From: a virus
Lineage: Duplodnaviria > Heunggongvirae > Uroviricota > Caudoviricetes
Length of the DNA: 64,000 bases
Virus record (IMG/VR): IMGVR_UViG_2880395615_000010
Strand: one strand, 5' to 3'
The position numbers were made by a program, and so were the translations under genes. Shown here one piece after another: positions 11,190 to 60,697 of the stretch (position 1 is the stretch's first letter; the number at the start of each line of letters is the position of its first letter). Under the pieces are notes generated by a model. That model was not told the DNA's origin and ran no database searches. It worked only from the letters and a program-made list of their open reading frames with translations.

Positions 11190-13786
11190 CGTCCACCTCC
11201 GGAGAACAGACCACCATCGCGCATCTGTGCCTGAATTTCATCACGGGCACCCTTGCGGGCCATGTCATACACCGCCTTCAGCATCTGTGGACCTGGCAGA
11301 CCATTCGTACCGTCGTTCTGAATCACCACGTTGTTGTTCTGCTCAAATCTGATACCCTCTGAACGCCGCATTTGCGCCGGACTTCCGGTGCCACCGACAT
11401 AACCACCGGTGGCATAGCCGCGCATCAGCCGGTAGAGATTCCCCACGCCAATCCGGCTGGTTGCCTCCTTCGTGAAGACAAATTCACCACGGTGAACAAT
11501 CCCCGCTGGCTCATATTTGCCGCCGGTTCCCGTAAATCCTCCGGTTGCAAAATGGAATTTCGCCGCAGCGGCCTGAATGGCTGTACCGCCTGACGCGGAT
11601 GCGCCGCTACCAACAGCCCCGCCAATGGCGCTGCCGATACTCCCGACAATCCCCACCATTGCCTGCTTAAGCAGAATTTCTGTCATCATGGACAGCACGG
11701 AACGGGTGAAGCTGCGCCAGTTCTGCTCACTGCCGGTCAGCATCGCCGCCATATTCTGTGCAATACCATCAAAGGTCTGCGTGGCTGCACTTTTTACCTG
11801 CGACATACTGTCCGTGGCACTCTCTTCCCACTCACTCCAGCCGGACTTCAGGCCTGCCATCCAGCTCCCGCGAAGCTGGTCTTCAGCCGCCCAGGTCTTT
11901 TTCTGCTCTGACATGACGTTATTCAGCGCCAGCGGATTATCGCCATACTGTTCCTTCAGGCGCTGTTCCGTGGCTTCCCGTTCTGCCTGCCGGTCAGTCA
12001 GCCCCCGGCTTTTCGCATCAATGGCGGCCCGTTTTGCCCGTTGCTGCTGTGCGAATTTATCCGCCTGCTGCGCCAGCGCGTTCAGGCGCTCCTGATACGT
12101 AACCTTGTCGCCAAGTGCAGCCAGCTGACGTTTGTACTCCAGCGTCTCTTTTTCATGAGCAAGAAGAGATTTTTCCTCGATACTTAGCGATTTCTTCTGT
12201 CCATCCAGAACGTCAGCAGACAACTTCTCATGCAACACGGCATACTGGCTTTCGGCTGTCCACAAATCCCGGCGCTGCTGGCTGATTTTTTCATTCGCTC
12301 CGCTATGCTGCTCAAGCATTTTTAGTTCAGCTTGTAACGCAAGAAGAGCTGCATGTGCTCGATCTTCCTGACGCTCTCCCGCAGACACCTTCACGCCGGA
12401 CTGCTTCGGCTTTTTCAGCGTTGCTTCATAGTCCTTTTTCGCCGCCGCCATCAGCGTGTTGTAATCTGCCTGCAGGATTTTCCCGTCTTTCAGTGCCTTA
12501 TTCAGTTCTTCCTGACGGGCGGTATATTTCTCCAGCGGCGTCTGCAGGCGTTCGTAAGCCTTCTGCGCCTCTTCGGTATATTTCAGCCGTGATGCCTCAG
12601 ACTCGGCCAAGTCCTTTGCTGCCATCTCTCTGGCCTTTTCAAGATCGGCCTGCAACGTGGCGGCTGAAAGCCCAAGTTGCGCATTCGCTCTGTCCTCCCA
12701 TGCTCCCCGGAGATTGGCAAGAAATGCTGACGTTTTACCGCGTCGGTGGCTTCGGCTCTGATACCACTGCCATTTTTTATCCGCTTCATCAAAAGCCTTT
12801 TCAGCTTTGGCGAGCATATCAGCAGAGGAGTCCGGGCGGCCAATATCCAGCACCGCATCCCACATGGATTTGAATGCCTGTGCAGTCTTGTCTGCCCAGG
12901 TCTCCAGCGTGCCCATGTTCTCTTTCAGGCGGCGGGTCTGGTCATCAAACCCTTTCGTTGCGGCCTCGTTCGCTGCCTGCAATGCCCCGGCCTCATCGCC
13001 GGAACGCTGCAACTGAGCAACATACGCAATCTGCTCTGCCGTCACGTTACGGAACTGGCGCGCCATCGCCATCAGTCCCGACGTCGGATCAGTGGTCAGC
13101 TTCCCGAAGGCTTCAGCGACTTTATCCACCTCCACACCGGATGCAGACGCAAAACGCGCAACACTCTGGTTGATCGCATCAAACTGTTCACCACCACGCA
13201 CACCGGCATTCACCAGGGCTGCCAGTGACTCACTCGCCTGGTTAAACGTCAGCCCTGCGGCCTGTCCGGCTCTGGAGAGCGTCAACATGCGATCGGCAGT
13301 CAGTCCGGACTGATTACCGGAAAGAACCAGGGTTTTATTAAACGCTGAAAGCGTGGAATCCCCCTGGTACCAGGCGTACGCCAGCGCACCTGTCGCCACC
13401 GCCAGCGAGGTGACCCCGACCATCGGCAGGGTGATCGCACCGGCAAGCCCCCTGAGCATGGGGATCATCCCGCCGAAGGAGTCCTTCACCTGACCGCCCT
13501 GTTGCAGCAGGATCAGCCAGGGATTCTGACCACCGGCAAGCTGCGTGGCGATATCCGTAAACTGTGCGGGCAGGGTGCGCATGGCCGCTTTATACTGTCC
13601 GACGGAAATCCCCGCTTTTTGCGCAGCCAGCGCCTGACGGCTCAGGCCCTGTTCAACAGCAGTGGCAGTTTTTCTGGCGTCAGTATCCAGTCCTGAAAAA
13701 TGACGCCTTACCCGGCTCATCTGCTCATCGAAACGGACCGCATCCAGACTCAGGTCAATAATAAGATCACCAACCGGCTGGGACAT
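11186..13786 (-). CDS. H: Tail tape measure protein H, 866 aa
   Basis: Long Ala/Gln-rich coiled-coil protein at the tape-measure position. Confidence 0.9.
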   Translation of the reverse strand: MSQPVGDLIIDLSLDAVRFDEQMSRVRRHFSGLDTDARKTATAVEQGLSRQALAAQKAGISVGQYKAAMRTLPAQFTDIATQLAGGQNPWLILLQQGGQVKDSFGGMIPMLRGLAGAITLPMVGVTSLAVATGALAYAWYQGDSTLSAFNKTLVLSGNQSGLTADRMLTLSRAGQAAGLTFNQASESLAALVNAGVRGGEQFDAINQSVARFASASGVEVDKVAEAFGKLTTDPTSGLMAMARQFRNVTAEQIAYVAQLQRSGDEAGALQAANEAATKGFDDQTRRLKENMGTLETWADKTAQAFKSMWDAVLDIGRPDSSADMLAKAEKAFDEADKKWQWYQSRSHRRGKTSAFLANLRGAWEDRANAQLGLSAATLQADLEKAREMAAKDLAESEASRLKYTEEAQKAYERLQTPLEKYTARQEELNKALKDGKILQADYNTLMAAAKKDYEATLKKPKQSGVKVSAGERQEDRAHAALLALQAELKMLEQHSGANEKISQQRRDLWTAESQYAVLHEKLSADVLDGQKKSLSIEEKSLLAHEKETLEYKRQLAALGDKVTYQERLNALAQQADKFAQQQRAKRAAIDAKSRGLTDRQAEREATEQRLKEQYGDNPLALNNVMSEQKKTWAAEDQLRGSWMAGLKSGWSEWEESATDSMSQVKSAATQTFDGIAQNMAAMLTGSEQNWRSFTRSVLSMMTEILLKQAMVGIVGSIGSAIGGAVGSGASASGGTAIQAAAAKFHFATGGFTGTGGKYEPAGIVHRGEFVFTKEATSRIGVGNLYRLMRGYATGGYVGGTGSPAQMRRSEGIRFEQNNNVVIQNDGTNGLPGPQMLKAVYDMARKGARDEIQAQMRDGGLFSGGGR

Positions 13787-14180
13787 ATCTCACACCTCCT
13801 GGAATCCCCGCTGAAGCCATCATTAATGCGGCATCATCCACCATGACATCCGCCACATCCGCAGACGATAAAATATCGCCCCCTCCGTCCCCACCGAACC
13901 GGACGCCTCCGGCAAGTCCTGCCGCTTTCTGCATCAGCATTTTGTCCTCATCCAGCCTCTCCACCTGCTCTTCCTCATGCCGGGGGACAAGCAGACTGAA
14001 ATCAGAGGGATGCATATCCGGATCGCAAAAAAACAGGCTGAGTACAGCGTACATCAGCCCGGAAAAATGCATATCCAGTTGGGTATCCTGAAAATAATGC
14101 GTGCGGTAAAAATGTCGCCAGTCGGCATATTCGGTGGATGTCATCCCGGCAAGCATGGCGCGCCAGTCAGGCCTCCCCAT
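13767..14180 (-). CDS. T: Tail assembly chaperone T frame, expressed as a G-T fusion by -1 frameshift
   Basis: ORF in the -1 frame relative to G, starting just downstream of a GGGAAAG heptamer. Confidence 0.7.
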   Translation of the reverse strand: MGRPDWRAMLAGMTSTEYADWRHFYRTHYFQDTQLDMHFSGLMYAVLSLFFCDPDMHPSDFSLLVPRHEEEQVERLDEDKMLMQKAAGLAGGVRFGGDGGGDILSSADVADVMVDDAALMMASAGIPGGVRYVPAGW

Positions 14181-14206
14181 CTCTCGCGCCAGTCTGAGGG
14201 CAAAAT

Positions 14207-14638
14207 TCAGCTCGCCGTCGAAGACTTTCCCGCAGAAAAATCATCATCAGTAAGCGCGTTATTTTTCGCCACTTCGGTGATATCCGTATCCACATGAACA
14301 GCCCCGCTCATCCCGGACAGACGCAACACCACGTCTTCCGCCCGGGCAATGGCATCAGCAGGCCAGGTGGTGAGCACCTCCTGTTCGATCTGCATCACAG
14401 CCTCATTCATTGATGGTGACTCCGTTTTCTGTGGATGGTTATGCCACAGGGACATCGCCACCAGAAACGCGCCGGTTCTGACAAGGTCTTCCACGCTCAC
14501 CTGCAGGTTACCGCTGGCTTCAGCCTGTTCTGCCCGTCGTTTCAGCAGGGCAAGATGCTCGATACGCTGCAGCGCAGACAGCTCGGAAAGCGTGACGGAC
14601 ACACCGTTATATTCAAATTGTTCGGTTTTCAGAAACAT
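14207..14638 (-). CDS. G: Tail assembly chaperone G, 143 aa
   Basis: Lambda G-like size and position upstream of T. Confidence 0.8.
   Translation of the reverse strand: MFLKTEQFEYNGVSVTLSELSALQRIEHLALLKRRAEQAEASGNLQVSVEDLVRTGAFLVAMSLWHNHPQKTESPSMNEAVMQIEQEVLTTWPADAIARAEDVVLRLSGMSGAVHVDTDITEVAKNNALTDDDFSAGKSSTAS
14224..14230 (-). promoter_or_regulatory. Programmed -1 ribosomal frameshift slippery heptamer GGGAAAG (G to G-T)
   Basis: Plus-strand ctttccc, reverse complement gggaaag, at the 3' end of G. Confidence 0.55.
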
Positions 14639-14651
14639 GTATTACCTCCGT

Positions 14652-15404
14652 TTACCCTGCAGCGCCCGCTTCAGTAACGGTGACTTCAGCTACCGTGGCA
14701 AACTGACCATTACCGGAAATCACGGGGATACTCACTTTTCCAGCCTTAACCCCCGTCACAGTGATCGCCATATCTTTCACAGCAATGGTTCCCGTTGACG
14801 GATCGGCGGAAACCGCTCTGAACGTTTTGTCGGTTGCACTTTCCGGCTCAAAAGAAACCGTCAGGGTTGTTGTTTTCCCTTTTGCCACCGTACCAGATGT
14901 CGGCGTCACCTTAATCGCAGTGACCGGCGTAATTTCGCTGCGTTCTTCCGCCACAGAAGGTTTACCCACGTTGGTCACTTTCACCGTACGGGTGATCACT
15001 TCCTTCGCCGTTACGGCCTTACCGATACTGCTGACCCAGCCACGGAACACATCCACCGTGCCGTTCGGGAAACGGATTTTATAGGCCCGCACATCCCCGC
15101 TTTCAAACCAGCCTATAAGCCCTTTCTGACCTTCTTCTCCCGGTTTCCAGGCCAGCGTAAAACTGGTATCTCCTGCAGACTTCTGCCCCTGCCCGGTCGC
15201 AGTCCAGTCCGCGTCTTCATCATCCAGGTAGTTATCATCGTAGGGTTCTGCCGTCATCTCGCCCGGCGTCAGATCCTTTACCTGTGCCAGTCGCTGCCAG
15301 TTATCGTCTGACAACGGGTTTGCATAGGCATCACCCTGACCGTTATAAACCCACAGGGTGGTACCGGCACCTTTTACCGGTGCCAGAGGATTTGGTGTTG
15401 GCAT
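14652..15404 (-). CDS. V: Major tail protein V, 250 aa
   Basis: Lambda V-like size and position. Confidence 0.85.
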
Positions 15405-15411
15405 ATCGTCC

Positions 15412-15807
15412 TCACATCTCGTATGTAATGGAATAAGTCAAATCAGCAGAACTCCATAACGCCATATCGTCATCACGACGATACTCATAGCCCTGCGTAA
15501 CCATCGTGGTAATCAGGCCTGACAGTGCCGGGATCGCACTCATCGCCGGATAAATCCGGCTTTCCATCCACGAATCCAGCTCTGAATCCGGCACCTGAGC
15601 AGGCAGGAAAACTTCAATATGCAGCTCCGCCTGCCAGGTATCGCTGTCCAGCGCTTCGCCCGTGTATTCAGCGCCGGTGAGATAAACAGCAATTGCCGGA
15701 AAATCCGCCTCATCAAAAACAGCGGGGCGACCGTCAAACAGCGTCGCCCCGTGTTCATGCTGCTCGAGTGCATCCAGCACTGCAGCACGGATATCAGTAT
15801 GTTTCAT
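15412..15807 (-). CDS. U: Tail terminator protein U, 131 aa
   Basis: Lambda U-like size and position. Confidence 0.85.
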
Positions 15808-16379
15808 CGCTTTATCACAATCCTTAGTTGTTGTTTCAACGCATAGCCCAGTTCTTTTGGCAGACGTTCTCGCCGGATACGGTTAACGTTCTCATCAAAA
15901 GCCTGCTTCAGTGGGGCCGCCATCGGAATTTTAACCACCTGAATGGGAAGACGATTACGCTTTTTCCTTCCTTTATCGTCATTGCCCTTCGCATACCGGG
16001 CTTCTGGCAAACGTTGCATAACATGCCAGCGCCCATTATTTAATCGCTGGATGAATGCCCGCTGATAACGATGCTGACCGGCTTTAAGTATGCTGTTCGG
16101 ACGATGACCAAGCATCCTGATCCCCAGCTTAATAGCAGGGAGATCACCGCGGTTAACGATAATTCTGGCATTCGGATTTCTGACCGTGGCCCGTTTCAGT
16201 CTGGACCGTTCCTTTACCAGTTTCCGGCTCACCCTGGTCTCCCGGGCAACCTGTGATGAAGACTGATTAATCGCCGTTGTAGCCACGCGGTTAATAGCCA
16301 TTGCTGAAGCCGACGGAATGGCGTTTTTACGAACCCGGCTCAGATTTTCAATCGCCTGATCAAGCCCTTTTATCGCCAT
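15804..16379 (-). CDS. Z: Tail completion protein Z, 191 aa
   Basis: Lambda Z-like size and position. Confidence 0.85.
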   Translation of the reverse strand: MAIKGLDQAIENLSRVRKNAIPSASAMAINRVATTAINQSSSQVARETRVSRKLVKERSRLKRATVRNPNARIIVNRGDLPAIKLGIRMLGHRPNSILKAGQHRYQRAFIQRLNNGRWHVMQRLPEARYAKGNDDKGRKKRNRLPIQVVKIPMAAPLKQAFDENVNRIRRERLPKELGYALKQQLRIVIKR

Positions 16380-16393
16380 AATTCACCCTGCGT

Positions 16394-16747
16394 TTATCGT
16401 CGCCGGTTAACTGCGGGTGGTTGCCCACGGTTCAGCCAGAGATAACAACTGCCCCCGTCATCCGGAGAAACACGATCCACCCAGAACGTCTCACCATTAA
16501 TGGTCAACGTGTCACCACGCCGCACGGCACGAACCGTATCCGTCCGCACAAATAATGACGGGCTGCTTCCTTCAATACGGATCCCACTACTGGCAAAACC
16601 CAGCGACTCCGGATCGTCAAAAACCCCCTGAACTTCGCCGCCACGCTGTGCACCGGAGGTGAACTGCGCACTGATGCCCATCACTTCAACAATCGTACTG
16701 TCCACCCCGGCAAGGGCGGCATCAAAGGCATTCTGAAAATCACGCAT
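16394..16747 (-). CDS. FII: Head-tail connector protein FII, about 117 aa
   Basis: Lambda FII-like; likely start at MRDFQNAFDAALAG as in copy B. Confidence 0.75.
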   Translation of the reverse strand: MRDFQNAFDAALAGVDSTIVEVMGISAQFTSGAQRGGEVQGVFDDPESLGFASSGIRIEGSSPSLFVRTDTVRAVRRGDTLTINGETFWVDRVSPDDGGSCYLWLNRGQPPAVNRRR

Positions 16748-17162
16748 AAACAGCCATTCCACCATCAACGTGTGTTTTTGCATCTGAGGACATAATCAGA
16801 ATCACCCGACCAACATCCGCAAGCTCAACGGATTCCCCCGTTTCACCATCAACGCCACAGAGATGGAGGCAGGTCAGAACTCTGATGCGCGTTAACGCGC
16901 CGGATGTTTCCTCACGAACATCATGAGCCGCGTTTTCCCTCTCCCGGATATCCATATTCATAACCTGTACATCATCGCCGGATGACTGCATTTCCTCTTC
17001 CCATTCTGCCACCCGCTGCGCTATCTCTGCGGCACTCCCGGATATATCCGGCTCACGCCCCAGAATCAGGGCCAGTTCATCAAGCCGTTTCAGATTTTGC
17101 TCTTTCGTTGCCATATCATCCCCCTGTGAAAAAAGACACGGGGGCATTTCGCCCCCGCTCAC
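16740..17162 (-). CDS. FI: DNA packaging protein FI-like, 140 aa
   Basis: Position between E and FII; C-terminal half differs from copy B. Confidence 0.6.
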   Translation of the reverse strand: MSGGEMPPCLFSQGDDMATKEQNLKRLDELALILGREPDISGSAAEIAQRVAEWEEEMQSSGDDVQVMNMDIRERENAAHDVREETSGALTRIRVLTCLHLCGVDGETGESVELADVGRVILIMSSDAKTHVDGGMAVYA

Positions 17163-17165
17163 GGA

Positions 17166-18194
17166 TTATTTCACCTGTACCACCACAAACTCATCCGGGT
17201 CCGGCAACACCATCAGCGGCGCGGACTGCGTCATGGTAAATTCACGGGCGGGATCCCCTACCGTCAGCCAGTGTTTCGGATAACGGGAAGAGGCCACCAC
17301 ACCTTCGGACAACGCCTGCGCATCCTGAATGGCACCATAGCAACGAATGCCCTCTGCTGCCGTATTCCCCAGGACCAGCGAGCCCTCAGGCAGATAACGT
17401 TTTTCGGTACCGTCCTCTGCCACATAAGACGTTTTTGCCACCACAATGGCCAGATCGCCGTAATACCCTTTGAAGGACACCACCGCGCCCAGGTCTTTCA
17501 CCGCTGTTTCGAGTTGCGAATTAGAGCCGCGACGGGTATCCAGTTTTTCGCGGAACAATTTAAAGCCATTCAGCAGACGCCAGACGGTACCGTCCATAAT
17601 GGCAATATTCACAAGACCGCTGGCCTGGTCGCAGTAGAGGTCAAGATCATGTGTAGGATCGAACGTGTCACGATCCTGTTTTGACCACTCCTTACCACTA
17701 CCCTGAGTGATGTTATTCTTCGTCGACCTGCCAAAATCGACCTCAATTTTCTCGAACTGGTCTCCTTCCATCGTGTATTTGCCATACAGCACGGCATTCA
17801 CCGCCTGCATTTCTTCCACCTGGACAATGGCGTGCTCTTCCTGTTTGAGGTTATCAGTGATGATACGCAGACGACGGTAGGCCGGGTCGTTCAGCTGAGC
17901 CGGATCTTCACCGGGAAGACGCTCAACCGCCTGCTGGTAATTAAATTCGTGTTTCGGCTTGACGTAGCCCGGACGTAACACGCGGGTTTCACCACCACGA
18001 TGACGCAGCACTTTTCCTTCAACAACCGGGGAGACATAGGCCGCCACCGGCGTTTTTCCGGTAATTTTGTCCAGCATCACCTCTTCGGTATGGAAATTCA
18101 CCGTACGGCGGAAAAACAGCTCCAGAAACAGCGCACGAAATTTCACTTTTTGTTCGGTATAACCGAGTAACTGGCGGGTCGTAAACAATCCCAT
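17166..18194 (-). CDS. E: Major capsid protein E, 342 aa
   Basis: Strong resemblance to lambda E from memory (GYVKPKHE..., ...DPAREFTM.QSAPLM...). Confidence 0.9.
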   Translation of the reverse strand: MGLFTTRQLLGYTEQKVKFRALFLELFFRRTVNFHTEEVMLDKITGKTPVAAYVSPVVEGKVLRHRGGETRVLRPGYVKPKHEFNYQQAVERLPGEDPAQLNDPAYRRLRIITDNLKQEEHAIVQVEEMQAVNAVLYGKYTMEGDQFEKIEVDFGRSTKNNITQGSGKEWSKQDRDTFDPTHDLDLYCDQASGLVNIAIMDGTVWRLLNGFKLFREKLDTRRGSNSQLETAVKDLGAVVSFKGYYGDLAIVVAKTSYVAEDGTEKRYLPEGSLVLGNTAAEGIRCYGAIQDAQALSEGVVASSRYPKHWLTVGDPAREFTMTQSAPLMVLPDPDEFVVVQVK

Positions 18195-25523: not shown

Positions 25524-25991
25524 TTATTTCAGGCACTGAGTGCGGATATAGTCCTGTGCCCCTTCCAGTTGCTTGTGCATCGTCATCAGCCGCTCTCTGA
25601 GGGTGAAATAATCCCGTGTAACGGTGTCTGCCAGTTGGGGGCCGGTTGCATTATCCACGCCGGAGGTGGTGGGGGCTTCACGCACGGAGCCTGGACAGGT
25701 GGCGTTGATCCGCAGGCGCTTACGACCAGCGGCAACGTCAGCGCGAAGAGTTTCATTTTCAGCTCTCGCATCGGCTAATTCCCTCGAGTATCTGGCATCA
25801 AGTGCAGCAACATCACGCTGGCGCTGCTGCATATCAGTAATGGTTGCATTTGCCTGCTCCAGCTCACTGACTTTTTTATCGCGCTGCTCTTTGTAGGTTA
25901 TGGCGTTATCACGGTAATGATTCAGCCCCAGACTAAGCGCACCACAGGCCACCAGCAGGGCAATGATGACCACGCACAGTACGCGGTTCAT
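25524..25991 (-). CDS. Rz: Spanin inner-membrane subunit Rz, 155 aa
   Basis: N-terminal TM segment, coiled-coil body, lambda Rz-like sequence. Confidence 0.85.
   Translation of the reverse strand: MNRVLCVVIIALLVACGALSLGLNHYRDNAITYKEQRDKKVSELEQANATITDMQQRQRDVAALDARYSRELADARAENETLRADVAAGRKRLRINATCPGSVREAPTTSGVDNATGPQLADTVTRDYFTLRERLMTMHKQLEGAQDYIRTQCLK
25586..25756 (-). CDS. Rz1: Spanin outer-membrane lipoprotein Rz1, embedded in Rz in another frame
   Basis: MKLFALTLPLVVSAC lipobox followed by CVKPPPPPAWIMQP proline-rich segment. Confidence 0.75.
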   Translation of the reverse strand: MKLFALTLPLVVSACGSTPPVQAPCVKPPPPPAWIMQPAPNWQTPLHGIISPSESG

Positions 25992-26289: not shown

Positions 26290-26823
26290 TTATCTGTCAA
26301 TTCCCCAGCACGCCAGCGCACTCTCCTGGTCGCGACGGGATACCTGACCGTAACAGTTGTTTGAGCGAATACGGCAGTCTCTGCCACCGTCCTTAATCCA
26401 CCAGCGAATCGCCTCACACGCCCCCCTGCGATCGCCTGCATTAATTCGTTTATAAAACGTCGACGGGAAACACTTACCGGGGCCAATGTTGTACGGACAG
26501 AATGACGCAATCCCCGCTTTCTGTGGTTCGGTCAATGGCACTTTGATGTTTTTCTCCACCCATGCCAGCGCCTTATTACGCTCAATGGCGTTAACCTGAG
26601 CGCATTTTGCCTTCGACAACTTCATGCCTGGAACAACAGGTTTACCATCCACCATGATGGCACCACGGCAGATGGTCCAGATCCCCGCACCATCACGGTA
26701 TGCCGTGGTGTGGTTACCTTCCTTTTCATCCAGAAACTGGTCGAGAATATCAGGCGCAGGCGCACCAGCGGCAATCAGCGCCAGAACGGCAGCCGACAGG
26801 CCGTATTTGATTTTGGTGTTCAT
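26290..26823 (-). CDS. R: Endolysin, lysozyme type with N-terminal signal-anchor-release (SAR) domain, 177 aa
   Basis: Hydrophobic Gly/Ala-rich N-terminus then E..D..T catalytic spacing (EGNHTTAYRDGAGIWTICRG). Confidence 0.85.
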   Translation of the reverse strand: MNTKIKYGLSAAVLALIAAGAPAPDILDQFLDEKEGNHTTAYRDGAGIWTICRGAIMVDGKPVVPGMKLSKAKCAQVNAIERNKALAWVEKNIKVPLTEPQKAGIASFCPYNIGPGKCFPSTFYKRINAGDRRGACEAIRWWIKDGGRDCRIRSNNCYGQVSRRDQESALACWGIDR

Positions 26824-27859: not shown

Positions 27860-28066
27860 TTAGTCTCCCCGCGCCGTCTTACGGCGGTCCTCCCTGATTT
27901 TGAAATACAGGTTAGTCAGATACGTCAGCAGGCCAAACAGCAGACTCCCCAGTACACCTATTGCCACCCACTGGGACGGAGAGACTTTGTCCAGCAGCTG
28001 CAGTAACCAGTATCCCGTCCCCACCGCTGACGTGGTGTATGACACACCCGTTGTGATTTTTTCCAT
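27860..28066 (-). CDS. S: Class II holin (phage 21 S-like pinholin), about 68 aa
   Basis: [63 protein letters not shown] resembles S21; the ORF-track start at 28135 may give a longer form. Confidence 0.8.
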
Positions 28067-28321
28067 CTGATGTATGTCTCCGTCACCGCCGACAGAAAAT
28101 GAAAGTAAAGGAAAACAAAAAGCCGCCAGTGTCACCCACTGACGGCCAACTCCGGGAGCCGTGATTATGGCATTCAGGCTCTGCTAAAAATGCCAGATAA
28201 CATTCCGACCAACCCCTGATTCAGGTTATAAATGACACAATATCTTGACAACATCCGTCACTGTCTGTCAGAAAATGTACTGCTAAATATAAGTATCATG
28301 TGAAGTACATCTACCCGTTTT

Positions 28322-28358: not shown

Positions 28359-28733
28359 TTATGCTGCCGGTGCATTTATCTCCAGCATCAGACTTTCTAT
28401 CTCAACGCCATACGCTGCATTTTTTGTAACATCCGTCAGCGTCAGCGCATTCAGTCCCAGTGTCAGACTGTCTTTTATAACCTGGAATGCCGGGCCAGCC
28501 ACTCCATTCAGTTTCGGAGTAACCGTGGCACTGCCGGCGGTGAACACCAGCTCCAGCGTCTGCCAGTCGTTACCGTAATCGCCGAACTCCCCCAGCTTCG
28601 TGTTTCCGGCTTTCCTGTGATGCATCAGATTCACTCTGCCGTCAGTGGTCTGAGTGAAGTACGACATCAGGAACGGATCCCCCCAGCAGCTCATCCAGAA
28701 TGGCATCCACTTCAGCATCAAGACGCGCCTCAA
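28359..28733 (-). pseudogene. C-terminal fragment paralogous to the 217-aa protein at 29202-29855
   Basis: Translation ...AGNTKLGEFGDYGNDWQTLELVFTAG...VTPKLNG aligns with the C-terminal about 100 aa of the upstream protein; N-terminal part missing. Confidence 0.4.
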
Positions 28734-28833: not shown

Positions 28834-29201
28834 GGGATTTTCTCGTTGAAAGGTGTTGTTAAGAAAGTTGCTACGAAATGAGAGGCTCTTCGGGTTTTGT
28901 TCCGGCTGACTGGCTGGCGCTGATTTTTTCCGCCGCCGCGGCATCAATCTTTTTGCGTATATAGTTCCGGATAACCTTATACCCGCCACTTACCAGATAT
29001 AACGTGCACACCACCGTGCAGAAATACAATAAAATAAGCTGTACAAATCTCATTATCCCTCCCGGTTATTGATATGGTGTTGACATCGTTAATACCTGTT
29101 GGTTAAAAAAGTGTCCTGCATGTTTTGCTTTGGATATAACGACATTTGCCGCCGGTTCTGGCTCCTTGTTTTCCCTGCCCCGGCGGCCTTTTTTTTCCTG
29201 C

Positions 29202-29855
29202 TTACGGGTTATTCACTTCCACTGTTATACTTTCAATCAGCACCGGATATGTCGCACCGCTAGTGATATCGGTCACGCGCAATTTGTCTGCCGTAAACGT
29301 GCCGACCGGTGACTGTGACAGCATGAACGGCGTCCCGTCCTTACCATCAATGACCGGCGTCACCTCAATACTGTTGTTACCGGCAAAACGGAAGCCCAGC
29401 GTATGCCATTCGTTATCAAATGCGCCGAATGACCCCAGCTTCGTGTTCTGACCAGCATTTCCCTTGTAGTACATCACATTAAGGTCTGTGGCATCGCTCT
29501 GTACGTAAAACGACGCCAGCAGGTTATGACCGGCATTACCTTCCAGTGTGACGCCCTGAGGCAGTGAAGAAACCGGCCAGTACAGCGCCAGTGCGTACTG
29601 ATTAGCTGTCAGTATGCCATCAACTTTAAAACGACAACTGATAAGCCCGCCCTTCTCCAGCAGGTCTGCGCCATTACCGGCATCATGCTGCATAAACCAC
29701 GAGGAACTTCCTGTCTGTTTGGTCCACCTCAGCGCCTTACCTCCTGCAGCACCTGCATCATCAACTACCAATGCACGCCCTCCTTCAGCTCCCCATCCCT
29801 GCGGATTCAGTAAACCACCTGACTCTGTTGCACGGTAATAAAGCAGCGTTGTCAC
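29202..29855 (-). CDS. Conserved prophage protein, 217 aa (possible beta-sandwich/carbohydrate-binding type)
   Basis: ATGA overlap with the upstream DUF1737-like gene; paralogous fragment downstream. Confidence 0.55.
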   Translation of the reverse strand: MTTLLYYRATESGGLLNPQGWGAEGGRALVVDDAGAAGGKALRWTKQTGSSSWFMQHDAGNGADLLEKGGLISCRFKVDGILTANQYALALYWPVSSLPQGVTLEGNAGHNLLASFYVQSDATDLNVMYYKGNAGQNTKLGSFGAFDNEWHTLGFRFAGNNSIEVTPVIDGKDGTPFMLSQSPVGTFTADKLRVTDITSGATYPVLIESITVEVNNP

Positions 29856-30085
29856 TGATTTCCCGTCCGTTGGCCACCATCCCCCGTGCCGGGCACAACC
29901 ACTGGCGTGGTCACATCCCCCTCCGCGGCAATCGCCTGCATCAGGGTATAAGGGGTTATGGCCACCGGACTACCAAACGGCTGCCAGCCCTCTTTCAGTT
30001 TGTGTGTCAGCTTTTCCGCAAGCTCTGACGGCGACGCCGCCTTGACAACATCATAGTGTTTAAATGCCATGGTTCTTTCCACCAT
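29852..30085 (-). CDS. Small DUF1737-like protein, 77 aa
   Basis: Resembles the small proteins found near the stx/nanS-p locus of lambdoid phages (from memory); coupled to the next gene. Confidence 0.5.
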   Translation of the reverse strand: MVERTMAFKHYDVVKAASPSELAEKLTHKLKEGWQPFGSPVAITPYTLMQAIAAEGDVTTPVVVPGTGDGGQRTGNQ

Positions 30086-30321
30086 CTAAAAAATAATTCT
30101 TTAAGATACCTGACATGTAATACACAAAACCACACCTTAAATAAAAACCTCATCATAAAGCAGATATGCATGGATAAACTACAAGACGAGGTATAAACCA
30201 CCCTGCATTTAAATAAATAATAAACAACATCAGAAAAATAATTCTGCCCTATGGTTTACATTCAAAATTATCATTTATACTTTTCAGAACAACACCAGCA
30301 AGGCATAAACAAGGAAACTAA

Positions 30322-30657
30322 ATGAAGTGGATTGTGATTGATACAGTTATCCAGCCATCATGCGGAATATCTTTTTCAGTCATATGGAGTAAAATAAAAT
30401 TAATAATCTGGTATCAATCGGATGCTTTCTTACCTCCTGAAAGTATATTTACACTGACTCACACAGGTATCATGCTCAATAACAAAGTGCTACCTGTAAC
30501 CATTTACAACGTAGTACCATTCAATAAAACATTCTGGAATTTAATCAAAAACAGCCAGGAATGCCCTACAAATACAGATAACGTATTGAATGAATGCTTT
30601 AATAACCGTTGCACTCTGCAAATATGTCCTTATGGACTAAAACAGCAAAGTCCATAA
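30322..30657 (+). CDS. Hypothetical AT-rich cysteine-containing protein, 111 aa
   Basis: SD AAGGA 7 nt upstream of ATG; candidate -35 TTTACA / -10 TATACT upstream; opposite strand to all flanking phage genes. Confidence 0.45.
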
Positions 30658-30699
30658 GGAGTTTACTCACATCTGACAAAATCAATATAAACAGCCCCT

Positions 30700-30722
30700 C
30701 CGGAGAGGGGCTGGAGAGTGGC
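30700..30722 (-). terminator. Hairpin likely terminating the tRNA transcript
   Basis: cagcccctctccggaggggctg followed by a T-rich tract on the minus strand. Confidence 0.4.
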
Positions 30723-30948
30723 GCTATGTGCCATTGCATGGTGCCGGGTGCCTCCCGGTGAATTCAGTACCAGCACCTGAATCCGCGATTATCCCATATA
30801 CCTACTCGCTGATTGCCCCTCCGCACAGGGGGATTCACCATGCCAGTTTCTTTTAACAAACTCCCCGCAAACCAGACAACAGTCAACCGCCTGAATTGTG
30901 AGACATTTAAAAAAAAAGCCCGCAAAAGCGAGCCAGGGAAAATAAGTG

Positions 30949-31025
30949 TGGCGCGTTGTACTGGATTCGAACCAGTGACCGATTGCTTAGAAGGCAATTG
31001 CTCTGTCCGGCTGAGCTAACAACGC
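30949..31025 (-). tRNA. argO: tRNA-Arg (anticodon UCU)
   Basis: Perfect cloverleaf: acceptor gcgttgt/acaacgc, anticodon loop CTTCTAA, T-loop TTCGAAT, encoded CCA. Confidence 0.8.
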
Positions 31026-31038
31026 AGGATACAGATAA

Positions 31039-31116
31039 TGGACCGCCTTCGGGGACCCGAACTCCGCGCAACCAGCTTCGAAAGCTGGCGCTCTTTCCTG
31101 ATGAGCTAATGGCGGT
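31039..31116 (-). tRNA. argN: tRNA-Arg-like (anticodon read as UCG), imperfect stems
   Basis: Perfect anticodon stem ccagc/gctgg with loop TTTCGAA, but one mismatch each in the acceptor and T stems. Confidence 0.5.
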
Positions 31117-31122
31117 ATGTGA

Positions 31123-31198
31123 TGGTGGCCCTTGCTGGATTTGAACCAGCGACCTGGCGATTATGAGTCGCTCGCTCTCACCACTGAGCTAAAGGGCC
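31123..31198 (-). tRNA. ileZ: tRNA-Ile2 (anticodon CAU, ileX/ileZ-like)
   Basis: ggccctttagctcagtggtgagagc...ctCATaa...ggttcaaatccagcaagggccacca, very close to E. coli ileX from memory. Confidence 0.85.
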
Positions 31199-31247
31199 GG
31201 GAGCAGAATAATAATGGTGCGTAATTAATTCTGCAATCTCATCCGTT

Positions 31248-32297
31248 TCAAACGATTAAATCCTGAACTTCCCTGACTGTCTGCTCAAAACGTCCGGTCT
31301 CCAGCTCAACACCAATCGCACGACGCCCCAGTGCCATCGCCGCTTTTACCGTTGAACCCGACCCCATGAAAAAATCCGCAACCAGATCACCAGGACGGCT
31401 ACTTGCGCTGATTATCTGCTGCAGCATTTCTGCCGGTTTTTCGCACGGATGTTTCCCTGGATAGTACTGCACCGGTTTATACGTCCACACATCGGTGTAC
31501 GGCACCTGCACCGTCACACCGAAATACCTCCGCAAATTTTTATATTCACTCAGCAGTTCCATATACTGCCGGTTCAGCTCACTGTATGTGCTGACCAGTT
31601 GGTAATGGGACTTTTCCAGTTCTCCCCGCTGATGTTTCTCTTCTGCCACCCGGGCAAACAGCGACTGTAATTTCAGATAATCGCTTTCGTTCGGTAGCTG
31701 CCACTGACTGGCACTGAACCAGTGCGACACCATGTTTTTCTTTCCTGTGGCATCTGCAATCTGTTTTGCCGTTATCCCCAGGGCCGCGCGTGCATCACGA
31801 AAGTAAGAAATCAGCTGGGCCATCACATGCTGTTTCAGTTCCCTGCCCTTCGCCTCATACCCGGCATCTTTCGGGCGATACGGCCCCTGATAATGTTCCG
31901 CGAACAGAATGCGCTCTGTGGCGGGGAAATACGCCCGCAGGCTTTCCTTGTTGCATCCGTTCCAGCGTCCGGACGGCTTCGCCCAGATAATATGGTTCAG
32001 CACACTGAAGCGTTCACGCATCATGATTTCGATATCAGATGCCAGGCGATGACCACAGAACAGGTAAAGACTTCCGGCAGGTTTCAGCACCCGCCAGAAC
32101 TGCGCCAGACACTGGTCCAGCCACTTCAGGTAATCATCGTCGCCCTTCCACTGGTTATCCCAGCCCTCAGGCTTCACTTTAAAGTACGGCGGGTCCGTGA
32201 CTATCAGGTCAACAGAATTTTCGGGTAACGACCGGATAAATTCCAGGCAGTCGGCGTTGATTAACTCACAACTGGATATTTTTACAGTATTAAGCAT
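31248..32297 (-). CDS. DNA methyltransferase (DPPY motif), 349 aa
   Basis: DLIVTDPPYF motif plus C-terminal AdoMet-binding DFFMGSGST. Confidence 0.85.
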   Translation of the reverse strand: MLNTVKISSCELINADCLEFIRSLPENSVDLIVTDPPYFKVKPEGWDNQWKGDDDYLKWLDQCLAQFWRVLKPAGSLYLFCGHRLASDIEIMMRERFSVLNHIIWAKPSGRWNGCNKESLRAYFPATERILFAEHYQGPYRPKDAGYEAKGRELKQHVMAQLISYFRDARAALGITAKQIADATGKKNMVSHWFSASQWQLPNESDYLKLQSLFARVAEEKHQRGELEKSHYQLVSTYSELNRQYMELLSEYKNLRRYFGVTVQVPYTDVWTYKPVQYYPGKHPCEKPAEMLQQIISASSRPGDLVADFFMGSGSTVKAAMALGRRAIGVELETGRFEQTVREVQDLIV

Positions 32298-32447
32298 GGA
32301 TCATTAAGCCTGTCTCTGATAGGCTCATTCTGCTTTTGCGCAAAGCAGTGGGCCTGAGGTTTGCTTGTGAACCCAACGCATGAGCAGATGGCTGGTGGGT
32401 GCCCCTAACACCCACCAGCCGCCCATTTACCACAAATAAAAAAGCCT

Positions 32448-32869: not shown

Positions 32870-33433
32870 TCAGTTTGCAACATTTTTCTCTGTAACAAAA
32901 GCCATGCGCATGGGGGCATATAACATAAATTCAGATACCCCCAACCATTGATCAATTCGGCGTCTGCACGTAACCAACGACCAATCAGGATGATCTGCAT
33001 TTAACCTTTCGGCCATGTTCAGTTTGCTCATTCCCCGTCCTTCGTACCTTTGCCGGAGAACATTGATTAGCCCGGGATATTCCCCAAGCACCTCACTGAT
33101 AACGCGATCAATAATCAACGCCTCTGTGTCTGTACAATGTGACAACCAGCTCTTCTGCTTTCCTCTTGTCATATCCCGAAAAAATGCCTCAAGTTCCGGT
33201 TTTTCCAGCCCGGATTTCTTCATTCTGCGTAAAACCTCATTAACTGCTGTTTTCGTCAGCTTTTTCGAAACCAGTAACCGGTTAAACATATTTCCGGATT
33301 TACCCCCACCGATATACGACCACCGCCCCCACATCCGTAATTTCCCCTGGATCCAGACTGCTTCCAGCGTGTTCAGGCGTAAATGTTCGCCTCTTTTGCC
33401 TGTAATTTCCGGATATATCATATTTACGCTCAC
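32870..33433 (-). CDS. Q: Late-gene antiterminator Q-like protein, 187 aa
   Basis: Position between RusA and the tR'-like terminator; family assignment from context only. Confidence 0.55.
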   Translation of the reverse strand: MSVNMIYPEITGKRGEHLRLNTLEAVWIQGKLRMWGRWSYIGGGKSGNMFNRLLVSKKLTKTAVNEVLRRMKKSGLEKPELEAFFRDMTRGKQKSWLSHCTDTEALIIDRVISEVLGEYPGLINVLRQRYEGRGMSKLNMAERLNADHPDWSLVTCRRRIDQWLGVSEFMLYAPMRMAFVTEKNVAN

Positions 33434-35292: not shown

Positions 35293-35448
35293 TTACTCCT
35301 CAGGTTCGTAAGCTGTGAAGACAGCGACCTCCGTCTGGCCGGTTCGGAGTCGTACCTCGCAGAGGTCTTTCCTCGTTACCAGTGCCGTCACAATGACGGT
35401 TAAACAGATGACGATCAGGGCGATAAGCATCGCCTTTTGCTGCTTCAT
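35293..35448 (-). CDS. hok: Hok/Gef-family type I toxin, 51 aa
   Basis: MKQQKAMLIALIVICLTVIVTALVTRKDLCEVRLRTGQTEVAVFTAYE matches the Hok pattern; SD AAGGAG upstream. Confidence 0.75.
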   Translation of the reverse strand: MKQQKAMLIALIVICLTVIVTALVTRKDLCEVRLRTGQTEVAVFTAYEPEE

Positions 35449-35739
35449 AGCCTGCTTCTCCTTGCCTTTCGGCACGTAAGAGGCTAACCTACGTGTGTAG
35501 AGCATAGATATGGCCTCAGATTAATGTTAAGCGTCTTGCCGGACGCGTAATGTTAACTGGGGCTTTTCTCTATCTGCCTTTTGGTGTTCATGCCTGAGAC
35601 AGATAGCCTCAAGCACCCGCAGCAATTCTACTTAACTCTCCTTTTCCCGCAAACCGTTTTTATCCCCAGCGGCAAATCGAATACACCACCAGCGTCACCG
35701 CCATCGCAATTCCTACCGTTGTGAATGCCTCAGGCCAGG

Positions 35740-49901: not shown

Positions 49902-50501
49902 TCAGAACTTATAACCGACACCCACGATGAAACCGTCAGTGCGCCAGTCGCCACTGCCGGAGCCTTCATAAGCGACATCAACGGCCACTGATTCGGTCGG
50001 GTTAAACTGCACGCCAGCCCCCCACGCCAGAGATGTGTTGCTGTAGCGAGCGTCATCACTTCCGGTCAGCACGTCGTGCGTTTTCCTCTTGTTGTCAGTT
50101 ACGCGAAGATAATCCCCGGAGAAAGTCGACACACGGCTGTAAGCCATACCCGCCATCGCATACGCGCTGAACCATTCATTCACGCGCACAGACGGCCCCG
50201 CCATCACGCTGAACCAGCGGTTACGCACGGAATCTTCATGCCAGCGGATATCGCTGTAACGGGTCAGCTGGCGATTCTTGTCTCCTGCATAGCTGAATGA
50301 CGTCACCAGCCCCAGTGTGTCCGTAAACTCATAACGGTATTTCACGTTAATCCCGTTCAGATCATCGCTGCCGGGAACGTTCGTCGAGGCATGAAGATAC
50401 CCCGCGCTCAGCGTGGACTGATGTTCAGATGCCCATGCAGGCGCACCGGATACAGCCAGACAAATGGCTGCGGAAAAAATGGCGGCATAAAGTTTACGCA
50501 T
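49902..50501 (-). CDS. lom: Lom-family outer membrane protein (copy B)
   Basis: Near-identical to the copy A lom. Confidence 0.85.
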   Translation of the reverse strand: MRKLYAAIFSAAICLAVSGAPAWASEHQSTLSAGYLHASTNVPGSDDLNGINVKYRYEFTDTLGLVTSFSYAGDKNRQLTRYSDIRWHEDSVRNRWFSVMAGPSVRVNEWFSAYAMAGMAYSRVSTFSGDYLRVTDNKRKTHDVLTGSDDARYSNTSLAWGAGVQFNPTESVAVDVAYEGSGSGDWRTDGFIVGVGYKF

Positions 50502-50568
50502 AATTACCTCTCGCTTTTCTGCAATAAAAAAGGCGCCATTTCTGGCGCCCGTATATGGGTTATAAAAT

Positions 50569-53500: not shown

Positions 53501-54045
53501 ACCATCCGGATGTTAAAGGGCCGGGGAGGCAGATTATCCAGAATCACCGACGCCAGGTACTGTGAGGTGGTCTTGCCGTTAATGGTGACATCCTTTTCCG
53601 TCACCCAGTTACCGTTACGCTGCAACTGAATCAGCAGTCGGACAGAAGAGGGATTACGGTCGCCCTTTGAGGTGGTCTCCAACAGTGACTGCACCCCGAA
53701 GGTGACCCGCAGGCGGTCAATGTTCGCGGATGTAATGGTGCGCGTCACCGGCTTTGCCTTCGTCACTTCCACGCCCAGTGCGGTTTCAGCTCCGGAGGAC
53801 TCAAAGCCTTCAGGTGGTGTCTGCTCCTGCTCCCCGGCGCGCCAGACCGCTGTCACACCATGTATCACAGGATTACCGTCCGTGTCCGTCAGCGGGGTTT
53901 TGTTCACCAGGATACTCTGCAACCCCTTCACCGGACCTTCAATCGGCCCTTCACCAATGGCATCAATCACGCTCATCATCTGCGTGGACTTAAGATTGTC
54001 CTTTGCCTCAACCGGCGTGTGCGCCCTGCCTCCACCTTTACCCAT
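50569..54045 (-). CDS. J: Tail tip host-specificity protein J (copy B), 1158 aa
   Basis: Co-linear with copy A J but the last about 130 aa differ. Confidence 0.9.
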
Positions 54046-54178
54046 AATGTTCCTCTCAATTGGTATTATTAATCGCAGTGATAGGATATTGCACAGCTAT
54101 TGCGCGATATCATCAGAACGCTGTTTGTTACCCTGTAACCAGCAAGCTCAGTCTGTTAACGGAATTAATGAGGGTTTT

Positions 54179-54706: not shown

Positions 54707-54713
54707 TCAGTCA

Positions 54714-54742
54714 GGTAAGGGGCGGGCCCCTTACCTTTATTC
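54714..54742 (+). terminator. Intrinsic terminator after sodC
   Basis: ggtaaggggcgggccccttacc followed by tttatt. Confidence 0.55.
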
Positions 54743-56218: not shown

Positions 56219-56228
56219 AAAACAGGAT

Positions 56229-60684: not shown

Positions 60685-60697
60685 GTATTACCTCCGT

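What the first reader, a model, noticed from the sequence alone, without database searches (positions are those of the whole stretch)
30100..30730. AT-rich plus-strand ORF at the position where Stx phages carry stx
Reading from Q, the order is methyltransferase, ileZ-argN-argO-like tRNAs, then this locus, then a DUF1737-like gene and the holin. That is the slot occupied by stxAB in Stx phages as I remember them. No stx-like sequence is present. Instead there is a 111-aa ORF on the opposite strand to every flanking phage gene, in a locally AT-rich segment, with a good SD (AAGGA) and a candidate sigma70 promoter (TTTACA, 15-nt spacer, TATACT). The protein has six cysteines and no family I can name.
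Basis: partly seen in the sequence, partly recalled or inferred. Interest (0 to 1): 0.6.

Follow-up and report, generated by a model that had tools for sequence, protein, structure and literature searches.

The report
iraL, a known RpoS-stabilising prophage gene
The AT-rich opposite-strand ORF is iraL, an already characterised prophage-borne gene whose product blocks RssB-directed degradation of the stress sigma factor RpoS; it lies next to, not in, the empty site where related phages carry Shiga toxin genes.

Summary
The ORF is real (window 30322-30657, + strand, 111 aa) and is not a chance ORF. Its protein is identical to IraL of uropathogenic E. coli CFT073 (RefSeq WP_000871291.1).

The gene is the cargo of a 621-bp, 32% GC cassette (30072-30692). 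The cassette lies between the start codon of a nanS-p/DUF1737 remnant and the terminator hairpin of a convergent STnc100-family sRNA (30872-30683, minus strand).

Alignment with Stx2 phages puts the stx2AB insertion point at window 30905/30908, on the far side of that sRNA. That site is empty here. The two slots are adjacent and independent: Stx2c phage 1717 carries both stx2c and an IraM-family gene.

About 1,370-1,430 of 5,426 complete E. coli genomes carry the same block.

Corrections: the protein has five cysteines, not six, and it belongs to a named family. Its relatives are cytoplasmic, so secretion is unlikely.

Verdict: already known, low interest. Two side leads remain: an unstudied third paralogue on Stx2 phages, and an invariant four-cysteine C-terminal tail.

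The parts
30322..30657 (+). iraL coding sequence (111 aa plus stop), an RssB anti-adaptor of the IraM/IraL family
   Evidence: The ORF is listed. The protein is identical to CFT073 IraL WP_000871291.1, with 2 synonymous nucleotide differences. NCBIfam NF007393 scores 162 bits. PDB 8twd IraM matches at E=9e-32.
30311..30315 (+). Shine-Dalgarno sequence AAGGA, 6 nt upstream of the ATG
   Evidence: Read from the sequence.
30255..30281 (+). Sigma-70-type promoter: -35 TTTACA (30255-30260), 15-nt spacer, -10 TATACT (30276-30281)
   Evidence: Both hexamers are identical to those upstream of CFT073 iraL. The -100..+33 region is 126/133 identical. The generic scan missed this promoter because it only allows 16-18-nt spacers.
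30289..30289 (+). Inferred transcription start site
   Evidence: The 5'-RACE mRNA start in CFT073 is ACATCACCAGCAAGGCATAAACAAGGAAACCA (PMC4045071). The window has ACAACACCAGCAAGGCATAAACAAGGAAACTA starting at 30289.
30072..30692 (+). The iraL moron cassette (621 bp, about 32% GC), absent from otherwise homologous loci
   Evidence: In iraL-less loci L016, L017 and L015, homology stops at window 30071 and resumes at 30690-30693. A different unit fills the gap: 232 bp in L015 and L016, and a longer, partly duplicated stretch in L017.
30692..30713 (.). Palindromic GC-rich hairpin, 35 nt after the iraL stop codon. On the minus strand it is the intrinsic terminator of the STnc100-like sRNA. On the plus strand it has no T-tract.
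   Evidence: One search reports a 9-pair stem followed by TTTATATTGA on the minus strand.
30683..30872 (-). STnc100-family sRNA gene (related to PasD), convergent with iraL
   Evidence: Rfam RF02076 scores 132.4 bits against a gathering score of 47. The same element follows stx2B in Stx2a and Stx2c phages.
30905..30908 (.). Empty stx insertion point
   Evidence: Window 30908-32300 aligns to L015 6232-7625, and window 30693-30905 aligns to L015 4663-4899. stx2A and stx2B lie in the 1.33 kb between them. The pattern is the same in phage 1717.
30917..30934 (-). Intrinsic-terminator-like hairpin plus T-run just downstream of the tRNA cluster
30949..31198 (-). Three phage tRNA genes: CAT anticodon (annotated Ile in RefSeq), Arg-TCG and Arg-TCT
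29852..30070 (-). DUF1737 gene, the N-terminal remnant of a nanS-p sialate esterase. The conserved start is the ATG at 30070-30068.
   Evidence: Pfam PF08410, E=1e-16. Homology to the N-termini of nanS-p/yjhS genes ends at 30071. The RefSeq start in strain D1 maps to 30070.
29202..29855 (-). DUF6645 gene, the C-terminal remnant of nanS-p. The SASA esterase core is missing.
   Evidence: Pfam PF20350, E=5e-70. It aligns to the 3' end of yjhS in L015.

Best explanation
The ORF is iraL, a prophage 'moron' that encodes a small cytoplasmic anti-adaptor.

In the lysogen it is transcribed from its own sigma-70 promoter, antisense to the silent late operon. IraL binds RssB, the response-regulator-like adaptor that hands RpoS (sigma-S) to the ClpXP protease. 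With RssB blocked, RpoS is degraded more slowly and accumulates even during exponential growth. This pre-arms the host's general stress response.

Shown for the identical protein in CFT073: RssB binding, a roughly two-fold longer RpoS half-life, and transfer of the effect to K-12 with the native promoter.

Shown here: sequence identity, the promoter and start-site match, the fold, the cassette boundaries and the gene's population spread.

Inferred: that the gene is expressed and has this effect in the strain the window comes from. Also inferred: that late transcription driven by the phage antiterminator Q, running antisense through iraL, damps it after induction.
For: - Identity: the protein is 100% identical to CFT073 IraL (WP_000871291.1), with 2 synonymous differences in 336 nt.
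- Family: NCBIfam 'anti-adapter protein IraM' scores 162 bits against a cut-off of 121. Residues 1-78 match IraM in PDB 8twd at E=9e-32.
- Fold: the AF2 model of residues 1-78 superposes on IraM in the RssB complex with TM 0.90 and rmsd 1.3 A.
- Contact residues: 11 of the 15 IraM residues that touch RssB (PMC10844676) are identical and 4 are conservatively changed.
- Promoter: the -100..+33 region used for complementation in the paper is 126/133 identical, with both hexamers intact. The measured start site maps to 30289.
- Selection: dN/dS is 0.10-0.17 against the paralogues.
- Synteny: the layout is the same in the CFT073 potB prophage, O104:H4 HUSEC2011, E. albertii and deposited phage genomes named as virions (vB_EcoS).
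- Spread: the 1-kb block is present in 1,373 of 5,426 genomes.
Against: - Nothing contradicts the identification.
- Expression was not measured for this strain, and rssB, rpoS and clpXP lie outside the window.
- The -35 hexamer has a suboptimal 15-nt spacer.
- No canonical plus-strand terminator follows the gene.
- The current Pfam-A copy gives no hit.
- The C-terminal 30 residues are modelled with pLDDT below 50, so their role is unknown.
Confidence: 0.95

Rival explanations
1. It is a chance ORF in AT-rich spacer DNA with no protein product.
For: The segment has low GC (32-35%). Pfam gives no hit. The -35/-10 spacing is non-canonical.
Against: - The protein is identical to an experimentally characterised one (PMC4045071).
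- dN/dS is 0.10-0.17 across paralogues whose dS is saturated.
- The CDS is at least 95% identical in about 1,415 records.
- There is a solved homologue.
Confidence: 0.01
2. It is a secreted cysteine-rich toxin or effector that takes the place of Shiga toxin as the phage's virulence cargo.
For: The gene lies in the same Q-to-holin cargo region as stx. The window's prophages carry type III effector genes: four NleG, an EspJ-like gene and a TccP-like gene. The C-terminal tail is cysteine-rich.
Against: - The stx slot is a different, empty junction at 30905/30908.
- Residues 1-78 are predicted to adopt the cytoplasmic IraM/PmrD fold that binds RssB.
- I saw no signal-peptide-like N-terminus on reading the sequence. 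Residue 7 is Asp, and the first residues form a beta-strand in 8twd.
- IraL acts on RssB inside the cell.
Confidence: 0.02
3. It is a PmrD-like connector that protects a phosphorylated response regulator other than RssB (for example PmrA), in addition to or instead of acting as an anti-adaptor.
For: The model matches E. coli PmrD 4hn7 (E=8e-4, TM 0.73). Precomputed annotations list PF11183 (which I recall as the PmrD family) for all relatives. IraM raises net RssB phosphorylation, much as PmrD does for PmrA.
Against: Identity to PmrD is only 14%. The current Pfam-A copy gives no hit at all, PF11183 included. IraL was isolated by, and explains, an RssB/RpoS phenotype and binds RssB directly.
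Confidence: 0.03

Closest known systems
IraL of uropathogenic E. coli CFT073 (c1429; WP_000871291.1; Hryckowian et al. 2014, PMC4045071)
   Same: The amino-acid sequence is identical. The promoter hexamers are the same and the -100..+33 region is 95% identical. The neighbours are the same: STnc100-like sRNA, tRNA Ile/Arg/Arg, a DUF1737 gene and a class II holin, inside a lambdoid prophage.
   Different: - There are two synonymous substitutions.
- A 9-bp indel lies about 190 nt upstream of the start site.
- The window lacks the DUF3927 gene and the second STnc100-like copy that lie between the tRNAs and iraL in CFT073.
- The window has a methyltransferase where CFT073 has IS200.
- The host prophage here carries NleG effector genes.
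IraM (YcgW/ElbA) of E. coli K-12, the Mg2+-starvation anti-adaptor (PDB 8twd)
   Same: It belongs to the same family, at 62% amino-acid identity. It has the same beta-barrel-plus-helix fold and the same target, RssB. The C81/C92/C97/C102 and CPYG tail is invariant.
   Different: - In K-12, iraM lies beside the e14 attachment site (icdC), not in a Q-to-holin late region.
- By my recollection of the literature, iraM is induced through PhoPQ at low Mg2+, whereas IraL acts in unstressed log phase (PMC4045071).
- In two-hybrid assays IraM binds both RssB domains and IraL binds only the N-terminal domain.
- All four contact-residue substitutions fall in the clusters that touch the RssB C-terminal domain and linker.
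IraM-family gene of Stx2c/Stx2a phages (phage 1717 gp43 YP_002274253.1; also phage 2851, WGPS4/6/8, F349)
   Same: It occupies the homologous slot, antisense, between the STnc100-like sRNA and nanS-p. It is 75% identical at the amino-acid level. The locus is colinear with window 29889-30905 at 70% DNA identity.
   Different: It is a distinct lineage (107 aa; dS 1.2 against iraL). It sits directly beside an occupied stx2 slot. It is found in 236 of 5,426 genomes, mostly O157:H7 among those listed. I found no experimental study of it.
AsxR/AgvB-type antisense 'anti-sRNA' morons of EHEC prophages (Tree et al. 2014, PMC4104026)
   Same: The architecture is the same: cargo transcribed antisense to the late operon and convergent with a sense sRNA. 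It lies between the moron CDS or tRNAs and the conserved downstream phage ORF. In iraL-less relatives, the unit that occupies the iraL slot (232 bp in L015 and L016) ends in a plus-strand terminator at the place described for AsxR.
   Different: iraL encodes a protein, not a 51-60-nt RNA. The Rfam AsxR and AgvB models gave no hit in that unit at E<=1, so I do not assert what it is.

Membership tests
IraM/IraL/RssC family of RssB anti-adaptors (NCBIfam NF007393 / PRK09919) | Full-length sequence match above the curated family cut-off | tested here: met
   162 bits against a cut-off of 121; residues 1-110 match profile positions 1-113 of 114.
IraM/IraL/RssC family of RssB anti-adaptors (NCBIfam NF007393 / PRK09919) | Orthology to the characterised IraL: at least 95% identity over the whole CDS, the criterion used in PMC4045071 | tested here: met
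   334/336 nt and 111/111 aa identical to CFT073 iraL.
IraM/IraL/RssC family of RssB anti-adaptors (NCBIfam NF007393 / PRK09919) | PmrD-like antiparallel beta-barrel plus C-terminal helix in residues 1-78 | tested here: met
   In the AF2 model, the 10-residue block means of pLDDT for residues 1-80 are 76-93, with strands E2-66 and helix H69-77. Foldseek's top hit is 8twd_A, with TM 0.90 and rmsd 1.3 A. This is a prediction, not a solved structure.
IraM/IraL/RssC family of RssB anti-adaptors (NCBIfam NF007393 / PRK09919) | Conservation of the residues that contact RssB in the IraM-RssB crystal structure | tested here: met
   Cluster I (I4, I6, W22, K26, I42) is 5/5 identical. Cluster II has C14, F18 and W30 identical, with T13S and L75I. 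Cluster III has I61 and Y62 identical, with H63N and I64V. P66 is identical.
IraM/IraL/RssC family of RssB anti-adaptors (NCBIfam NF007393 / PRK09919) | Physical binding to RssB and stabilisation of RpoS against ClpXP | not testable with these tools
   Shown for the identical protein in CFT073, S. sonnei and K-12 (PMC4045071). Not measured for this strain. rssB, rpoS and clpXP are not in the window.
Lambdoid-phage 'moron' (independently expressed cargo in the late region) | Located between the Q antiterminator/pR' and the lysis cassette | tested here: met
   Q-like gene at 32870-33433, holin at 27860-28135, lysozyme at 26290-26823 and Rz at 25524-25991.
Lambdoid-phage 'moron' (independently expressed cargo in the late region) | Presence/absence polymorphism with sharp junctions among otherwise homologous phages, and atypical base composition | tested here: met
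   The junctions are at 30071/30072 and 30692/30693 against L015, L016 and L017. GC is 32% against 52%.
Lambdoid-phage 'moron' (independently expressed cargo in the late region) | Own promoter and own terminator | tested here: inconclusive
   The promoter is supported by the match to the mapped CFT073 start site. On the plus strand only a hairpin without a T-run follows the gene; it is shared with the convergent sRNA.
Shiga toxin (stxAB) locus | stxA and stxB coding sequences between the phage tRNAs and the STnc100-like element | tested here: not met
   The two flanks of stx2AB in L015 and L003 abut at window 30905/30908, with nothing between them.
PmrD connector family (PF11183, which I recall as PmrD) | Match to the Pfam family model | tested here: inconclusive
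   The current Pfam-A copy gives no hit even at E<=10. Precomputed annotations list PF11183.15 for all 19 longer relatives. The fold resembles 4hn7 at 14% identity. I do not file the protein under this family.
STnc100 sRNA (Rfam RF02076), the adjacent element | Covariance-model score above the gathering threshold over the full model | tested here: met
   132.4 bits against 47; model positions 1-206 of 206; window 30872-30683, minus strand.

The most novel reading that the evidence does not exclude
IraM-family anti-adaptors may be recurrent cargo of one specific antisense slot beside the stx insertion point. Their position may make them lysogeny-specific.

On this reading they are expressed from their own promoter while the late operon is silent. 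They are then shut off by Q-driven antisense transcription, and by overlap with the convergent STnc100-like sRNA, once the prophage is induced.

The unstudied third lineage on Stx2c/Stx2a phages would then couple toxin-phage carriage to raised log-phase RpoS in O157:H7. That could explain the high-sigma-S STEC strains that Hryckowian et al. found to lack iraL.

The invariant Cys4-CPYG tail would be a metal- or redox-sensing module that tunes the anti-adaptor.
Probability: 0.2. Interest if true: 0.45.

Novelty: already known. Interest (0 to 1): 0.12.

Why it matters
For this window the result mainly closes the question. The 'mystery ORF in the stx slot' is a named, functionally characterised gene that public annotation already labels, although as IraM rather than IraL.

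Two points have some value.

First, the map of the region is now base-precise:
- tRNAs and their terminator;
- the empty stx junction at 30905/30908;
- the STnc100-like sRNA;
- the iraL cassette at 30072-30692;
- the start of nanS-p.

This shows that lambdoid phages have at least two independent cargo slots here, and that toxin and sigma-S-stabiliser cargo can be combined.

Second, an attaching/effacing-type strain is seen carrying iraL on a prophage that also carries NleG effector genes. The original paper found iraL under-represented in EHEC/STEC.

Tried and rejected
- Pfam-A scans at E<=0.01 and E<=10 gave nothing for the ORF or for K-12 IraM. The family is visible only through NCBIfam, the PDB and precomputed annotations.
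- The generic promoter scan did not report the iraL promoter, because its spacer is 15 nt. It found only one unrelated intragenic match, fewer than the shuffles gave.
- Rfam at E<=1 found no AsxR or AgvB match in the 232-bp unit that replaces iraL in Stx2a phage L015. I therefore do not claim that iraL replaces AsxR, only that it sits where Tree et al. place it.
- The genome-contig scan reached only 8 loci, because it depends on two peptide patterns. It missed Salmonella rssC.
- The protein search returned only 20 clusters at 90% identity; every one that carries a source name is Escherichia.
- AF2 did not fold the Cys-rich tail (pLDDT below 50). The zinc-knuckle idea is therefore neither supported nor excluded.
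- Literature searches for IraM with Stx2c, or with Shiga toxin and phage, found no paper on the Stx-phage paralogue.
- The chance-ORF and secreted-toxin readings were considered and rejected; see the rival explanations.

Full report
**1. The observation**

- A 111-codon ATG ORF lies on the plus strand at 30322-30657. Every neighbouring phage gene and the three tRNA genes are on the minus strand.
- AAGGA lies 6 nt before the ATG. TTTACA (30255-30260) and TATACT (30276-30281) are separated by 15 nt.
- The ORF is 34.5% GC and the stretch 30090-30690 is 32.4% GC. The flanks and the whole window are 51-52% GC.
- Read in the phage's direction, the gene order is as stated: Q-like DUF1133 gene, DNA methyltransferase, tRNA-Ile(CAT)/Arg/Arg, this locus, DUF1737 gene, DUF6645 gene, DUF1378/DUF826 genes, P21-type holin, lysozyme, Rz.
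- One detail is wrong. The protein has five cysteines (positions 14, 81, 92, 97 and 102), not six.

**2. What the ORF is**

The ORF is iraL.
- NCBIfam model NF007393, 'anti-adapter protein IraM', matches end to end at 162 bits against a curated cut-off of 121.
- Residues 1-78 match the IraM chain of PDB 8twd, the IraM-RssB complex, at E=9e-32.
- Megablast against 5,426 complete E. coli genomes finds the locus annotated as IraM in more than a thousand of them.
- In CFT073 the gene lies in the prophage beside potC. Its product is RefSeq protein WP_000871291.1.
- The window's translation is identical to that protein. Only two nucleotides, both synonymous, differ across 336.

That CFT073 gene is iraL (c1429), described by Hryckowian et al. 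2014 (PMC4045071). Their findings were:
- Deleting iraL lowers sigma-S in log phase in CFT073 and in Shigella sonnei.
- Deletion halves the sigma-S half-life, from about 5 to about 2.5 min.
- The gene with its native promoter raises sigma-S in K-12.
- IraL co-purifies with RssB. [quoted passage not shown]

**3. The promoter**

The paper's 5'-RACE places the mRNA start at ACATCACCAGCAAGGCATAAACAAGGAAACCA. The window has ACAACACCAGCAAGGCATAAACAAGGAAACTA beginning at 30289.

The -100..+33 segment that sufficed for complementation is 126/133 identical, and both hexamers are unchanged. The generic scan missed it only because it demands a 16-18-nt spacer.

**4. Further support that it is a working protein gene**

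- Selection: dN/dS against the K-12 and Stx-phage paralogues is 0.10-0.17, with dS of 1.2-2.0.
- Fold: an AF2 model built on 16 family members gives a confident beta-barrel plus helix for residues 1-78. It superposes on IraM in 8twd with TM 0.90 and rmsd 1.3 A. PmrD structures are the next hits.
- Contact residues: Brugger et al. (PMC10844676) list 15 IraM residues that contact RssB. Eleven are identical in IraL and four are conservatively changed: T13S, H63N, I64V and L75I.
- All four changes lie in the clusters that touch the RssB C-terminal domain and linker. The cluster that docks on the N-terminal receiver domain is 5/5 identical.
- That pattern fits the published two-hybrid difference, in which IraL binds only the N-terminal domain. 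This link is my inference.

**5. Anatomy of the locus and the stx question**

I aligned window 29000-32300 with six related loci:
- the CFT073 prophage;
- two other iraL prophages;
- a deposited phage genome (vB_EcoS-640R1);
- Stx2a phage Stx2_14040;
- Stx2c phage 1717.

I then aligned window 29800-31000 with two iraL-less prophages. Four results follow.

(a) The methyltransferase and tRNA segment is shared with Stx2 phages down to window 30908. There, in those phages, stx2A begins.

(b) The sequence immediately downstream of stx2B in Stx2 phages corresponds to window 30905-30693. The stx2AB insertion point therefore maps to the 30905/30908 junction, which is empty here.

(c) Window 30872-30683 on the minus strand is a full-length match to the Rfam sRNA family STnc100, at 132 bits against a gathering score of 47.
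- The same element follows stx2B in both Stx2 phages and lies beside iraL in CFT073.
- A 2026 preprint relates STnc100 to PasD sRNAs found upstream of the sialate esterase gene.
- Its terminator hairpin (30713-30692) lies 35 nt from the iraL stop codon. iraL and the sRNA are therefore convergent and share the hairpin.
- On the plus strand the hairpin has no T-run.

(d) In iraL-less relatives, homology stops at 30071, the start codon of nanS-p/DUF1737, and resumes at 30690-30693.
- In L015 and L016 a 232-bp unit fills the gap. L017 has a longer, partly duplicated stretch.
- The unit carries a plus-strand terminator-bearing element at the place where Tree et al. 2014 (PMC4104026) put the antisense anti-sRNA AsxR.
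- The Rfam AsxR and AgvB models did not match it.

The iraL cassette is thus 30072-30692, or 621 bp.

Phage 1717 carries, in order, stx2c, the STnc100-like element, an antisense IraM-family gene and nanS-p. The two slots are therefore adjacent and independent. iraL is beside the stx slot, not in it.

**6. Distribution**

- The iraL CDS is at least 95% identical in about 1,415 records.
- The 651-bp query is covered at least 80% in 1,428 genomes.
- The 1,086-bp block from DUF1737 to the sRNA is covered at least 80% in 1,373 genomes.
- The identical protein occurs in UPEC CFT073, O104:H4 HUSEC2011, a canine isolate, a wastewater isolate and the E. albertii type strain.
- Four deposited phage genomes carry a 98% identical copy.
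- K-12-type iraM (about 71% nucleotide identity) is the best match in most of the 3,332 records that fall in the 60-80% identity band. It lies beside the e14 attachment site, not in a late region.

**7. How it most likely works here**

- In the lysogen the late operon is silent and iraL is read from its own promoter. This step is inferred from CFT073.
- IraL binds RssB. RssB can then no longer present sigma-S to ClpXP, and sigma-S accumulates in growing cells. These steps were shown for the identical protein.
- In CFT073, iraL expression rises in a fur mutant and on a shift to 37 C.
- After induction, Q-modified polymerase would cross the tRNAs, the sRNA and then iraL in the antisense direction. 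This should interfere with iraL expression. That step is inference only.

**8. Comparison and novelty**

This is a known gene in its known kind of context. The paper calls that context the 'potB genomic island', which one search shows to be a lambdoid prophage.

What I did not find stated in the papers I read is modest:
- the base-level relation to the stx junction and to the STnc100-like sRNA;
- the third lineage on Stx2 phages, present in 236 genomes, for which I found no study;
- the invariance of C81, C92, C97, C102 and CPYG. It holds across all 16 family members and across 32%-identical chromosomal homologues. Yet the tail was cut from the crystal construct and is modelled with low confidence.

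**9. Verdict**

- Novelty: already known.
- Interest: low.

Noticed in passing
window 30683-30872 (minus strand): A full-length STnc100-family sRNA gene (Rfam RF02076, 132 bits) is convergent with iraL and shares its terminator hairpin. RefSeq annotates a 126-nt 'hypothetical protein' pseudogene on the opposite strand here. The same element follows stx2B in Stx2a and Stx2c phages.
   Followed up: partly
L003 5001-5324 (Stx2-converting phage 1717, NC_011357.1 26252-26575): A third IraM-family lineage (107 aa, 75% identical to IraL) lies in the iraL slot directly after stx2cB and the STnc100-like element. It occurs in 41 deposited Stx2 phage records and in 236 of 5,426 complete E. coli genomes, mostly O157:H7 among those listed. 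No paper in the searched library discusses it.
   Followed up: partly
window 30562-30636 (codons 81-105 of iraL): C81, C92, C97, C102 and the CPYG motif are invariant in all 16 family members. They are also invariant in 32%-identical chromosomal homologues from an Enterobacteriaceae MAG and from Pseudescherichia. Yet the tail is modelled with pLDDT below 50, and it was removed from the IraM crystal construct. A metal site is possible; this is unexplained.
   Followed up: partly
window 29202-30070 (minus strand): The nanS-p (sialate O-acetylesterase) gene that normally follows this locus is reduced to a DUF1737 N-terminal ORF and a DUF6645 C-terminal ORF. About 1.2 kb encoding the SASA esterase core is missing relative to Stx2a phage yjhS. 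A second DUF6645 fragment lies at 28359-28733.
   Followed up: partly
window 1-2924: Four tandem NleG-family type III effector genes lie at the tail-fibre end of the iraL-bearing prophage. This points to an attaching/effacing (EPEC/EHEC-type) host.
   Followed up: no
window 46181-48127: An EspJ-like gene (AvrPphF-ORF-2 domain, 46181-46930) is followed by a TccP/EspFu-like gene (47255-48127). The second has copies of a 141-bp proline-rich repeat: five EspF-repeat stretches by Pfam. Both lie at the end of a second lambdoid prophage.
   Followed up: no
window 1-18000 versus 46000-64000: Two lambdoid prophages lie in tandem. Their tail and head genes are colinear at an offset of about 45.3-46.1 kb and are 74-95% identical. 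An integrase gene at 44633-45658 lies between them. This is a substrate for inter-prophage recombination.
   Followed up: no
window 35443-35618 and 41196-41247: A sok antitoxin RNA of a hok/sok module (Rfam, 117 bits) and a DicF sRNA (77 bits) lie in the early region of the iraL-bearing prophage.
   Followed up: no
L006 22553-23465 (CFT073), L002, L004, L007, L017, L018: In L004, L007 and L017 a second, roughly 70-73% identical STnc100-like segment lies between the tRNAs and the iraL-proximal copy. The annotations place a small DUF3927 gene in the same interval in CFT073, L002 and L018. The repeated segment may act as a recombination linker that lets cargo units be stacked.
   Followed up: no
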